Shown here: piece after piece, positions 6,001 through 9,000 of the stretch
Layout of the letters: each line of letters starts with the position of its first letter
How positions within the stretch are numbered: position 1 is the stretch's first letter
Source of the DNA: a virus
Taxonomy: Duplodnaviria; Heunggongvirae; Uroviricota; Caudoviricetes
Strand: one strand, 5' to 3'
Virus record (IMG/VR): IMGVR_UViG_2671180603_000006
DNA: 13,295 bases
Position numbers: made by a program

Positions 6001-9000
6001 AGGAGCTGAGTGACCGCTGGGTGGTGGAGCAGATGTCGCAGCTGACAGCCATGACGGCCTCGTTTGTGCTGGCTACACCGACCGAGACGGACGGGGCGCT
6101 GTTTCCCGGTCGCATCATGCTGGCGAACACCTGTATGTGGGATTACCGGGGAGATGAATGCGGGTATAACGGTCCTGCGGTGGCGGATGAGTTCGACAAC
6201 CCCACCACGGATATCCGTAAGGACAGATGCAGCAAGTGCATGCGCGGGTGTGAACTGCGCAGGAATGTCGGCAATTTTGGCGGTTTCCTTTCCATTAATA
6301 AACTTTCGCAGTAAATCCCGGTTTATGACACAGACTGAATCAGCGATTCTGGCACATGCCCGGCGGTGTGCGCCTGCGGAGTCGTGCGGCTTCGTGATAA
6401 GCACGCCGGAGGGGGAGCGGTATATCCCTTGTGTGAATATTTCCGCAGAGCCGGAGGCGTATTTTCGTATCGCACCGGAAGACTGGCTGCGGGCAGAGAT
6501 GCAGGGGGAGATTGTGGCACTGGTCCACAGTCATCCCGGTGGGCTGCCCTGGCTGAGCGAGGCTGACCGGCGGTTGCAGATAAAAAGCGCACTGCCCTGG
6601 TGGTTGGTCTGCCGGGGTGACATTCACAAATTCCGCTGTGTGCCACATCTGACAGGACGGCGCTTTGAGCACGGGGTGACGGACTGTTACACGCTGTTCC
6701 GGGATGCTTATCATCTGGCGGGGACTGAAATGCCGGATTTTCATCGCGAGGATGACTGGTGGCGCAACGGTCAGAACCTTTACCTGGACAATATGGCGGT
6801 CACCGGCTTTTACCGGGTGCCCCTGTCCTCTGCACAGGCGGGCGATATTCTGCTGTGCTGCTTTGGTGCTTCGGTACCGAACCATGCCGCCATTTACTGC
6901 GGCAACGGTGAGCTGCTTCACCATCTGCCTGAACAACTGAGTAAACGGGAGAGGTATTCCGAAAAATGGCAACGACGAACGCATTCAGTCTGGCGTCACC
7001 GCCACTGGCACGCATCTGCCTTCACGGGGATTTACAACGATTTGGCCGCCGCCTCAGCCTGTATGTGAACACGGCAGCGGAAGCCATTCGCGCCCTGTCG
7101 ATGCAGATGCCGGGCTTTCGCCGTCAGATGAACGAAGGCTGGTACCAGATACGTATTGCCGGTTATGACACGGCACCGGAGGCGGTGTACGCCCGTCTTC
7201 ACGAACAGCTGGGTGAGGGAACGGTCATCCACATTGTGCCGCGACTGGCCGGGGCCGGAAAGGGTGGACTGCAGATTGTGCTGGGGGCGGCAGCCATCGT
7301 GGGCTCTTTCTTCACTGCCGGGGCATCAATGGCGTTATGGGGTTCAGCCCTGGCAGCCGGTGGTTTTTCTGCCACCACGATGCTGTTTTCACTTGGAGCC
7401 AGCATGATTCTGGGCGGTGTGGCCCAGATGCTGGCCCCGAAGGCAAAAACACCGGATTACCGCGCAACGGATAACGGCAGACAGAACACGTACTTTTCCT
7501 CACTGGATAACATGATTGCCCAGGGGAACCCGATGCCGGTGCCTTACGGGGAAATGCTGGTTGGCTCCCGCCGTATATCCCAGGACATCAGCACCCGTGA
7601 TGAAGGCGGGGGCGGAAAGGTCGTGGTTATCGGGCGGCAGGGGTAAAAAGAATAAAAAAATCCCGCAGTGATCGCGGACAGGAACTGCGGGAGAGTTACG
7701 AAGATTAAGTGTAAGGAATTATTCTTATATCACGACAAAAAAATTAACGCAGAGAAATTATACGCGCCACAGTCAGTTTGTGAAAATGTGAAGATATTCA
7801 GAATTTTTATGCCATTACCGGTTTTAACCAACAGGATTATCGGTGGGCATGAAAGAAAACCCCGGTATCTGCTGATACCGGGGTTTCTCTTTAGCATGGC
7901 AGAAATGTGTTTCATGCTTTTCGGGCGAAGGATATCCGACTTCTGTACGGAATGGCAAGTGGCGGTTAATTTATTCAGGGGAAGGCTGTATGGGAAAAGG
8001 TGGCGGTAAGGCACACACGCCTCGTGAGGCGAAGGATAATCTCAAATCCACGCAGATGATGAGCGTGATTGATGCGATTGGTGAGGGACCGATAGAAGGT
8101 CCGGTGAAGGGACTGCAGAGTATCCTGGTGAACAAAACCCCGCTGACGGACACGGACGGTAATCCCGTGATACACGGTGTGACGGCGGTCTGACGCGCCG
8201 GGGAGCAGGAGCAGACACCACCGGAAGGCTTTGAGTCCTCCGGTGCTGAAACCGGACTGGGCGTGGAAGTGACGAAGGCAAAACCGGTGACGCGCACCAT
8301 TACGTCCGCGAACATTGACCGCCTGCGGGTTACCTTCGGGGTGCAGTCACTGGTGCAGACCACGTCAAAGGGTGACCGAAACCCGACATCCGTCCGCCTG
8401 CTGATTCAGTTACAGCGTAACGGTAACTGGGTGACAGAAAAGGATGTCACCATTAACGGCAAGACCACCTCGCAGTTTCTGGCGTCGGTGATTCTGGATA
8501 ATCTGCCTCCCCGTCCTTTTAACATCCGGATGGTCCGGGAGACAGCGGACAGCACCACGGACCAGCTGCAGAATAAGACGCTGTGGTCGTCATACACCGA
8601 AATCATCGATGTGAAACAGTGCTACCCGAACACGGCCATTGTGGGGCTGCAGGTGGATGCGGAGCAGTTCGGCGGCCAGCAGATGACGGTGAACTACCAT
8701 ATCCGCGGTCGCATCATCCAGGTGCCGTCAAACTATGACCCGGAAAAACGCACGTACAGTGGTATCTGGGACGGCAGCCTGAAACCGGCATACAGCAACA
8801 ATCCGGCCTGGTGTCTGTGGGACATGCTGACTCACCCGCGCTACGGCATGGGAAAACGTCTGGGGGCGGCGGATGTGGACAAGTGGGCGCTGTATGCCAT
8901 CGGGCAGTACTGCGACCAGACGGTCCCGGATGGTTTCGGGGAGACCGAGCCGCGGATGACCTTCAATGCGTACCTGGCACAACAGCGTAAGGCATGGGAC

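What the first reader, a model, noticed from the sequence alone, without database searches (positions are those of the whole stretch)
8185..8199. In-frame opal (TGA) codon at J codon 68 within conserved sequence, in a UGA-C context
The J frame reads ...GVTAV-TGA-RAGEQEQTPPEGFESSG..., with conserved J sequence continuing in the same frame after the stop; lambda has a sense codon here. It is either a nonsense mutation or a sequencing error. UGA followed by C is known as a weak termination context in E. coli, so low-level readthrough is conceivable, but the downstream frameshifts would still prevent a full-length J.
Basis: partly seen in the sequence, partly recalled or inferred. Interest (0 to 1): 0.4.

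Follow-up and report, generated by a model that had tools for sequence, protein, structure and literature searches.

The report
Fixed nonsense mutation in dead prophage gene
The stop codon is a real, inherited Trp-to-stop mutation in the tail-tip gene J of a crippled lambda-like prophage carried by Shigella sonnei, so it is ordinary gene decay and neither a sequencing error nor a recoding signal.

Summary
J starts at ATG 7990, and codon 68 (8191-8193) is TGA followed by C, with J sequence continuing in the same frame.

The window is a whole draft contig of Shigella sonnei (CXDK01000122.1). The closest intact J, from E. coli ATCC 25922, differs from window 7600-8777 at one base only: 8193 is A instead of G. 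The mutation is therefore TGG (Trp) to TGA. Lambda has TTC (Phe) at this codon.

It is not a sequencing error. All 14 other S. sonnei loci fetched carry the same TGA, and five of them come from complete or near-complete chromosomes of 4.96-5.04 Mb. No exact match to the 81 bases around the TGA turned up in 5,426 complete E. coli genomes, and 78 of 80 viral-contig relatives have TGG.

Every S. sonnei copy also carries a 22-bp deletion at 9856, flanked by a 7-bp repeat, which shifts the frame. Repairing both lesions in silico restores one 1157-aa ORF.

The second "frameshift", at 10544, is an artefact. That base is N in the public record and joins sequence from a paralogous prophage.

The prophage has lost its lysis, terminase and head genes to IS elements. 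UGA-C is leaky, and readthrough would re-insert the original Trp, but the deletion still truncates J.

This is ordinary and of low interest.

The parts
8191..8193 (+). Opal codon TGA at J codon 68, derived from TGG (Trp) by a G->A transition at 8193. The next base (8194) is C.
   Evidence: ATCC 25922 J has TGG and lambda has TTC. 78 of 80 relatives have TGG.
7990..8193 (+). N-terminal 67-codon fragment of J, ending at the opal codon. Gene callers report it as a separate 67-aa ORF.
   Evidence: The exact 67-aa product is recorded on 111 contigs. The index lists it in 146 blocks of the collection, of which 24 contigs were read.
8194..9855 (+). Continuation of J in the original frame (codons 69-622), 97.6% identical at protein level to intact J. 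Gene callers report it as a 547-aa ORF from GTG 8263.
   Evidence: Pfam FNIII-A_GpJ and Phage-tail_3.
9856..9862 (+). Surviving copy of the 7-bp repeat CTGACGG at the junction of a 22-bp deletion. The intact allele reads CTGACGGTGGAGGTGAGTGCAG-CTGACGG. The deletion shifts J to another frame, and the old frame stops at 9904-9906.
   Evidence: The junction is present in all 14 other S. sonnei loci. All listed hits in complete E. coli genomes span the region with 22 extra bases.
9863..10543 (+). Middle part of the same J (about aa 630-859 of the repaired protein), read in the shifted frame. This is the end of the first assembled piece.
10544..10544 (.). Scaffold gap. It is N in the public record CXDK01000122.1 and A in the window as supplied. 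It joins two separately assembled pieces.
   Evidence: All other S. sonnei loci stop matching here.
10545..11914 (+). C-terminal 456 codons of a different J allele, with no internal stop. It is 77.6% identical at protein level to the C-terminus of the true partner. Its first 454 bases repeat 10090-10543 at about 96% identity, which creates the apparent 455-bp duplication and frameshift.
1..35 (.). Terminal roughly 35 bases of IS21, inserted just upstream of tail gene Z. This is the left truncation point of the prophage.
   Evidence: L002 bases 1-2046 are 100% identical to IS21, and window base 1 corresponds to L002 base 2012. Homology to E. coli prophages starts at window 35.
124..7646 (+). 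Tail genes Z, U, V, G, T, H, M, L, K and I, each called as one uninterrupted ORF with the expected Pfam families. J is the only tail gene in this piece that I found disrupted.
   Evidence: gene list for L009 with Pfam families.

Best explanation
The TGA is a genuine, vertically inherited nonsense mutation, TGG (Trp68) to TGA by a G->A change at 8193. It lies in the tip-attachment gene J of a defective lambdoid prophage of Shigella sonnei. Three things are shown. The allele is reproducible across independent S. sonnei assemblies, including finished genomes. It always occurs together with a 22-bp slippage deletion about 1.66 kb downstream that shifts the J frame. The prophage has lost its lysis, terminase and head genes to an IS3-family/IS21 replacement. 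One thing is inferred: because no virion can be made, J is under no purifying selection, so both lesions drifted to fixation in this young, bottlenecked clone as part of the genome degradation documented for Shigella. Translation of any J mRNA would mostly stop after 67 residues. The UGA-C context may allow a few per cent readthrough by Trp-tRNATrp, which would restore the original residue. Such ribosomes would still reach the deletion and terminate at 9904-9906. The product would be about 638 aa: 622 residues in the native frame, then 16 out-of-frame residues, with no receptor-binding C-terminus.
For: The single-base difference from intact J, TGG versus TGA, comes. The source organism and spread of the allele come, where the exact 547-aa and 513-aa fragments are named Shigella sonnei. 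In one search the index lists the 67-aa ORF in 146 blocks of the collection. The TGA context is identical in L002-L011 and in L098, and a 67-aa gene is called at the J start in L013-L016. These loci include HE616528.1, CP044151.1, CP044191.1, CP032523.1 and UGZB01000001.1. The TGA allele was not found in the E. coli collection: no exact 81-mer in 5,426 complete genomes. It was also not found in the GTDB species representatives. 78 of 80 IMG/VR relatives have TGG, and the two with TGA carry the 53G-type S. sonnei haplotype. The 22-bp deletion between CTGACGG repeats is in all S. sonnei loci, while all listed complete E. coli hits carry 22 extra bases there. In-silico reversal of the two lesions in 53G gives one 1157-aa ORF. 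The prophage is a remnant: the IS21 end lies at window 1-35, and in L098 the order is Q-like antiterminator, holin, IS3-family transposase, IS21 istA, then Z, whereas E. coli relatives carry lysis genes, Nu1, A, W, portal, protease, D, E, FI and FII there. There is no stimulatory RNA structure downstream (z = -0.98) and no Rfam match. Literature: Shigella genomes degrade through nonsense mutations, indels and IS, and IS21 is among the IS of S. sonnei 53G (PMC7373316).
Against: Nothing found contradicts it. Several points were not shown. I did not see raw reads for this particular assembly. I did not establish the order of the three events (head deletion, 22-bp deletion, TGA). I did not survey every S. 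sonnei lineage for a TGG copy. I have no expression data for the tail operon. The window differs from other S. sonnei copies at about 10-17 positions in 10.5 kb, which shows the draft assembly is imperfect in paralogous regions, although not at the TGA.
Confidence: 0.95

Rival explanations
1. It is a base-calling or assembly error in this draft contig, and the true codon is TGG.
For: The contig is an old short-read scaffold with a demonstrable artefact at 10544. It also has private differences from other S. sonnei copies, clustered in a paralogous region.
Against: The region 7990-8400 is base-for-base identical, TGA included, in nine further assemblies besides the window's own public record. 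Complete or near-complete chromosomes carry the same split of J. Two IMG/VR entries also have TGA.
Confidence: 0.01
2. It is a functional leaky stop. UGA-C is read through by Trp-tRNATrp often enough to supply a useful amount of J-derived protein, which would be a regulated or domesticated use of the tail module.
For: A C after the stop gives inefficient termination, especially at UGA, in bacteria (PMC5289835). UGA readthrough by Trp-tRNATrp was about 2-4% in E. coli K-12-derived reporter strains (PMC10570021). The ancestral residue is Trp, so readthrough would restore the wild-type sequence. The other tail genes Z to I are still called as uninterrupted ORFs.
Against: The stop is not conserved: 78 of 80 relatives have TGG. 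The 22-bp frameshift downstream removes the C-terminal half, including the receptor-binding part. No stimulatory structure was found. Lysis, terminase and head genes are gone, and two IS elements lie between the late-operon control region and Z. S. sonnei is described as a genome-degrading lineage (PMC7373316), so uninterrupted neighbouring genes need no selective explanation.
Confidence: 0.02
3. The UGA is recoded, as selenocysteine or through a reassigned code.
For: Only that UGA is the codon used for selenocysteine.
Against: Homologues have Trp or Phe here, not Cys or Sec. There is no significant hairpin downstream of the UGA (z = -0.98) and no Rfam family hit in the window. The host is Shigella/E. 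coli, which uses the standard code (established knowledge). The other genes in the window were called as uninterrupted ORFs under table 11.
Confidence: 0.003
4. Translation restarts at GTG 8263 and yields an N-terminally truncated but functional J fragment, the 547-aa ORF that gene callers report.
For: Gene callers annotate a 547-aa ORF from GTG 8263 in every assembly.
Against: The ORF lacks the first 91 residues, which align residue for residue with the solved lambda J structure. It ends in the out-of-frame tail created by the 22-bp deletion. I saw no strong ribosome-binding sequence upstream of 8263 in the sequence, though I did not score this. The ORF call follows mechanically from the stop codon.
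Confidence: 0.015

Closest known systems
Bacteriophage lambda tip attachment protein J (gpJ; solved structures 8IYK, 8K35, 9E7M)
   Same: Residues 1-310 of the repaired protein align end to end with lambda J (E about 1e-173). The gene order Z-U-V-G-T-H-M-L-K-I-J-lom-stf is the same. The Pfam set is the same: FNIII-A_GpJ, Phage-tail_3, Ig_J, Phage_Tail_Tip and Ig_GpJ_C.
   Different: The gene here is interrupted by an opal codon at residue 68, where lambda has Phe and the nearest relatives have Trp, and by a 22-bp deletion. It cannot encode full-length J.
Intact J of the E. coli ATCC 25922 prophage (WP_016265923.1, 1230 aa)
   Same: It is 99.9% identical in DNA over window 7600-8777, with one difference at 8193. 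The tail-module layout is the same.
   Different: It has TGG at codon 68 and the undeleted 22 bp. Its C-terminal third is a different allele, which reflects mosaicism.
Pseudogenes of Shigella genome degradation (nonsense mutations, frameshift indels, IS insertions; Hawkey et al. 2020, PMC7373316)
   Same: All three lesion types named in that paper occur in this one prophage: a nonsense codon, a frameshifting deletion, and IS21/IS3-family replacement of the lysis, terminase and head genes. All are fixed across the S. sonnei genomes examined.
   Different: None in kind. This is a prophage gene, not one of the core metabolic or virulence-related genes that the paper focuses on.
Leaky UGA-C termination signals in E. 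coli (for example the prfB UGA-C site; UGA readthrough by tRNATrp)
   Same: The tetranucleotide UGA-C is the same, and near-cognate decoding would insert Trp, the ancestral residue.
   Different: The stop is not conserved among homologues. There is no slippery or stimulatory element, and the downstream reading frame is broken. It resembles a leaky stop only by context and is not a member of any programmed recoding class.

Membership tests
Lambda gpJ / tip attachment protein J family | Sequence homology to lambda J over the N-terminal hub region | tested here: met
   phmmer against PDB chains gave lambda J 8iyk_J at E = 1.1e-173 over residues 1-310. tblastn with intact ATCC 25922 J gave 97.6% identity over aa 1-627.
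Lambda gpJ / tip attachment protein J family | Characteristic domain set (FNIII-A_GpJ, Phage-tail_3, Ig_J, Phage_Tail_Tip, Ig_GpJ_C) | tested here: met
   Pfam hits on the fragments and the precomputed hits.
Lambda gpJ / tip attachment protein J family | Position downstream of K and I and upstream of lom and stf in a lambda-type tail module | tested here: met
   Gene lists, compared with lambda.
Lambda gpJ / tip attachment protein J family | One uninterrupted ORF encoding the full protein (functional membership) | tested here: not met
   There is a stop at codon 68 and a 22-bp frameshift. An intact 1157-aa ORF appears only after in-silico repair.
Pseudogene by nonsense mutation | Close relatives carry a sense codon one substitution away | tested here: met
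   TGG in ATCC 25922 and in 78 of 80 IMG/VR relatives.
Pseudogene by nonsense mutation | The allele is real (reproducible in independent sequencing) | tested here: met
   Fourteen other S. sonnei loci from several submitters, including complete chromosomes.
Pseudogene by nonsense mutation | Independent signs that the gene is dispensable or decaying | tested here: met
   A second lesion, the 22-bp deletion. Loss of lysis, terminase and head genes to IS elements. Two further substitutions in the 53G-type haplotype, which I read as Pro34Leu and Gly315Ser from the translations.
Programmed stop-codon readthrough | The stop codon is conserved at this position across homologues | tested here: not met
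   78 of 80 relatives have TGG, and lambda has TTC.
Programmed stop-codon readthrough | The downstream frame is intact and encodes the functional extension | tested here: not met
   The 22-bp deletion shifts the frame at 9856 in every copy.
Programmed stop-codon readthrough | Measured readthrough at this site | not testable with these tools
   This needs a reporter fusion. Only the context (UGA-C) could be compared with the literature.
Selenocysteine-encoding UGA | SECIS-type hairpin immediately downstream, and Cys or Sec in homologues | tested here: not met
   The fold of 8185-8270 is no better than shuffles (z = -0.98). There is no Rfam hit. Homologues have Trp or Phe.

The most novel reading that the evidence does not exclude
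The most novel reading my evidence does not exclude is this. S. sonnei keeps the uninterrupted Z-I tail genes for a reason, and the leaky UGA-C at codon 68, decoded as the ancestral Trp, supplies trace amounts of a roughly 638-aa J fragment with some domesticated role, for example in a tail-like particle or an envelope function. Nothing positive supports it. The downstream deletion, the missing lysis, terminase and head genes and the interposed IS elements all argue against it.
Probability: 0.01. Interest if true: 0.5.

Novelty: already known. Interest (0 to 1): 0.07.

Why it matters
It matters little biologically. This is one more fixed pseudogene in a prophage remnant of a genome-degrading pathogen. 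Its practical value is for annotation and quality control.

- The three 'host specificity protein' ORFs (67, 547 and 513 aa) that gene callers report in S. sonnei are fragments of one dead J gene.
- The TGA, the 22-bp deletion junction and the IS21 boundary together form a haplotype found here only in S. sonnei-type sequences. The TGA 81-mer was absent from 5,426 complete E. coli genomes.
- The apparent duplication and second frameshift in this contig show that single-N scaffold joins between paralogous prophages can mimic mutations once the N is replaced by a base.

Tried and rejected
- **Exact-pattern scan for the TGA 51-mer** in GTDB species representatives: no match. This gave no information on the source.
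- **Megablast of the window** against complete E. coli genomes, phages and plasmids: only mosaic matches of 97% or less. This showed the source was not in those collections. Identity came from exact-protein look-ups instead.
- **Exact look-up of the window's tape-measure protein:** it returned only the window's own contig because of private SNPs.
- **Literature search for the assembly accession:** nothing found.
- **A true 455-bp tandem duplication in J**: rejected once the public record showed N at 10544 and all other S. sonnei loci diverged exactly there.
- **A SECIS or readthrough-stimulating structure:** rejected (z = -0.98, no Rfam hit).
- **Function of the 343-bp I-J spacer ORFs:** no Pfam hits. 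Not pursued further.
- **Not used:** the large protein-database homology searches and structure prediction, because the answer did not depend on them.

Full report
**Observation.** The window at 8185-8199 reads GCGGTC TGA CGCGCC. The J ORF begins at ATG 7990, so TGA at 8191-8193 is codon 68 and is followed by C. Translation gives ...NPVIHGVTAV*RAGEQEQTPPEGFESSG..., and the frame stays open and J-like for another 1.66 kb or so.

**Source of the window.** An exact-sequence look-up of the 67-aa N-terminal ORF returned the window itself as the whole contig CXDK01000122.1 of assembly GCA_001252175.1 (L009). The exact 547-aa and 513-aa J fragments carry the source name 'host specificity protein J [Shigella sonnei]'. 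The 513-aa fragment lies on complete or near-complete chromosomes, including HE616528.1. From my own knowledge that record is S. sonnei 53G. The window matches no complete E. coli genome, phage or plasmid record at better than about 97% overall.

**The ancestral codon.** The nearest intact J is that of E. coli ATCC 25922 (1230 aa). Across window 7600-8777 it differs at exactly one base: 8193 is A in the window and G in ATCC 25922. The mutation is therefore TGG (Trp) to TGA, a single G->A transition. Lambda J has TTC (Phe) at the aligned codon, so the position holds an aromatic residue in both intact proteins.
- Among 80 close relatives fetched from IMG/VR, 78 have TGG and 2 have TGA. None of the 78 has any stop in the first 310 codons.
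- The two TGA loci carry the 53G-type S. sonnei haplotype.
- An 81-base query centred on the TGA found 5,025 places in 5,426 complete E. coli genomes. None matches exactly, and the best hits have one mismatch.

**Real mutation or sequencing error.**
- The region 7990-8400 is base-for-base identical, TGA included, in L002-L011. These are nine further assemblies plus the window's own public record, with accession prefixes pointing to several submitters.
- The same 67 + 547 + 513-aa split of J appears on HE616528.1, UGZB01000001.1, CP044151.1 and CP044191.1.
- CP032523.1 carries the same TGA context and the same deletion junction.

A random base-calling error cannot recur in this way. The allele is inherited and fixed in the S. 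sonnei genomes examined. Two haplotypes occur. They differ at 8090 and 8932, both carry the TGA, and the window type has the same bases as ATCC 25922 at those two sites. The TGA therefore predates the split between them.

**Downstream lesions.** tblastn with intact J shows three segments in the window: aa 1-627 in frame 1, aa 628-849 in frame 3, and aa 708-1229 in frame 2.

The first shift is a 22-bp deletion at 9856. The intact allele reads GCAGCAC-CTGACGGTGGAGGTGAGTGCAG-CTGACGG-TCAG, and the window keeps a single CTGACGG. This is the signature of slippage between 7-bp direct repeats. The junction is present in all 14 other S. sonnei loci. In complete E. coli genomes, every listed hit spans this region with 22 extra bases.

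The second shift is not biological.
- Position 10544 is N in the public record and A in the window as supplied.
- All other S. sonnei loci match the window at 99.9% up to 10543 and stop matching there.
- The segment 10545-13295 is a different J allele. Its C-terminal 456 codons have no stop and are 77.6% identical at protein level. It comes with its own lom and stf, so it belongs to a paralogous prophage.
- The 455-bp direct repeat at 96% identity is simply the overlap of the two joined pieces.

In S. sonnei 53G, reversing the A->G change and re-inserting the 22 bp yields one uninterrupted 1157-aa ORF. The true J therefore carries exactly two lesions.

**Context: a prophage remnant.** Window bases 1-35 are the end of IS21. 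L002 bases 1-2046 are 100% identical to IS21, and window base 1 corresponds to L002 base 2012. In the complete genome CP032523.1 the order upstream of Z is RusA, a Q-like antiterminator, a DNA methylase, a SASA-domain protein, holin, DUF1327, an IS3-family transposase, IS21 istA, and then Z. E. coli relatives with the identical Z protein carry lysis genes, Nu1, A, W, portal, protease, D, E, FI and FII in that place. S. sonnei has therefore lost its lysis, terminase and head genes, and IS1 copies sit to the right of the tail-fibre genes. No virion can be made, so J is dispensable. This matches published descriptions of Shigella genome degradation through nonsense mutations, frameshifting indels and IS activity. 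IS21 is among the twelve IS identified in S. sonnei 53G (PMC7373316).

**Mechanism and the readthrough idea.** The literature agrees that a C after the stop gives inefficient termination, especially at UGA, in bacteria (PMC5289835). UGA readthrough is a competition between RF2 and Trp-tRNATrp and was about 2-4% in K-12-derived reporter strains (PMC10570021). This has no functional consequence. Such ribosomes meet the 22-bp deletion and stop at 9904-9906, leaving about 638 aa without the C-terminal receptor-binding region. The stop is not conserved in homologues. The 86 nt from the stop onward fold no better than shuffled sequence (z = -0.98), and Rfam finds nothing in the window. Selenocysteine, programmed readthrough and functional reinitiation at GTG 8263 are all very unlikely.

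**Comparison with the known, and verdict.** By sequence, domain content and synteny the gene belongs to the lambda gpJ tip-attachment family, but it fails the requirement of an intact ORF. It is a J pseudogene. It meets every test I could apply for a nonsense-mutation pseudogene and fails the tested criteria for programmed recoding. The allele already sits in published finished genomes, so it is not novel. The finding is real, correctly described, and ordinary.

Noticed in passing
window 10544 (and 10090-10543 versus 10545-10998): The base given as A is N in the public record. It joins two assembled pieces from paralogous prophages, which creates a false 455-bp direct repeat (about 96% identity) and a false frameshift in J.
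   Followed up: yes
window 9856-9862: A 22-bp deletion in J is flanked in the intact allele by the 7-bp direct repeat CTGACGG, the signature of slippage. It is present in all 14 other S. sonnei loci, and all listed complete E. coli hits have 22 extra bases there.
   Followed up: yes
window 1-35; L002 1-2046; L098 6871-9810: The contig starts inside the end of IS21. In complete S. sonnei genomes an IS3-family element plus IS21 replace the lysis, terminase and head genes between the holin gene and tail gene Z.
   Followed up: yes
window 11985-12498: The lom gene of the second (paralogous) piece is truncated. Residues 1-159 are in one frame and residues 186-199 in another, so about 26 codons are missing with a frame change. 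The ORF is 160 aa against 199 aa in the other copy.
   Followed up: partly
window 7647-7989: There is a 343-bp spacer between I and J, where lambda has 60 bp. It is also present and unannotated in E. coli ATCC 25922. Its 113-aa (+) and 94-aa (-) ORFs have no Pfam hit and the region has no Rfam hit. One E. coli relative (L097) has an 84-aa ORF called here.
   Followed up: partly
window 10154-10494: Ten of the 17 differences between the window and S. sonnei 53G cluster here, in the stretch that has a paralogous copy. Four of the ten carry the paralogue's base, which suggests mixed-paralogue consensus or gene conversion in this draft assembly.
   Followed up: partly
window 8090 and 8932: Two S. 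sonnei haplotypes exist. The 53G type has T and A at these sites, and the window type has C and G, the same bases as ATCC 25922. From the translations I read both changes as non-synonymous (Pro34Leu, Gly315Ser), which fits relaxed constraint on a dead gene.
   Followed up: partly
window 2272-2278: GGGAAAG lies near the end of G, upstream of T. From my own knowledge this is the same heptamer as the lambda G/GT -1 programmed frameshift site, so the tail chaperone signal appears to be retained.
   Followed up: no
L013 15119-16972; L005 17063-17245: Downstream of stf, the S. sonnei prophage has oppositely oriented tail-fibre-assembly and gp37_C genes, and a 60-aa resolvase fragment in some assemblies. 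CP044151.1 shows a different arrangement from the other chromosomes. This may be an invertible tail-fibre segment; I did not test that.
   Followed up: no
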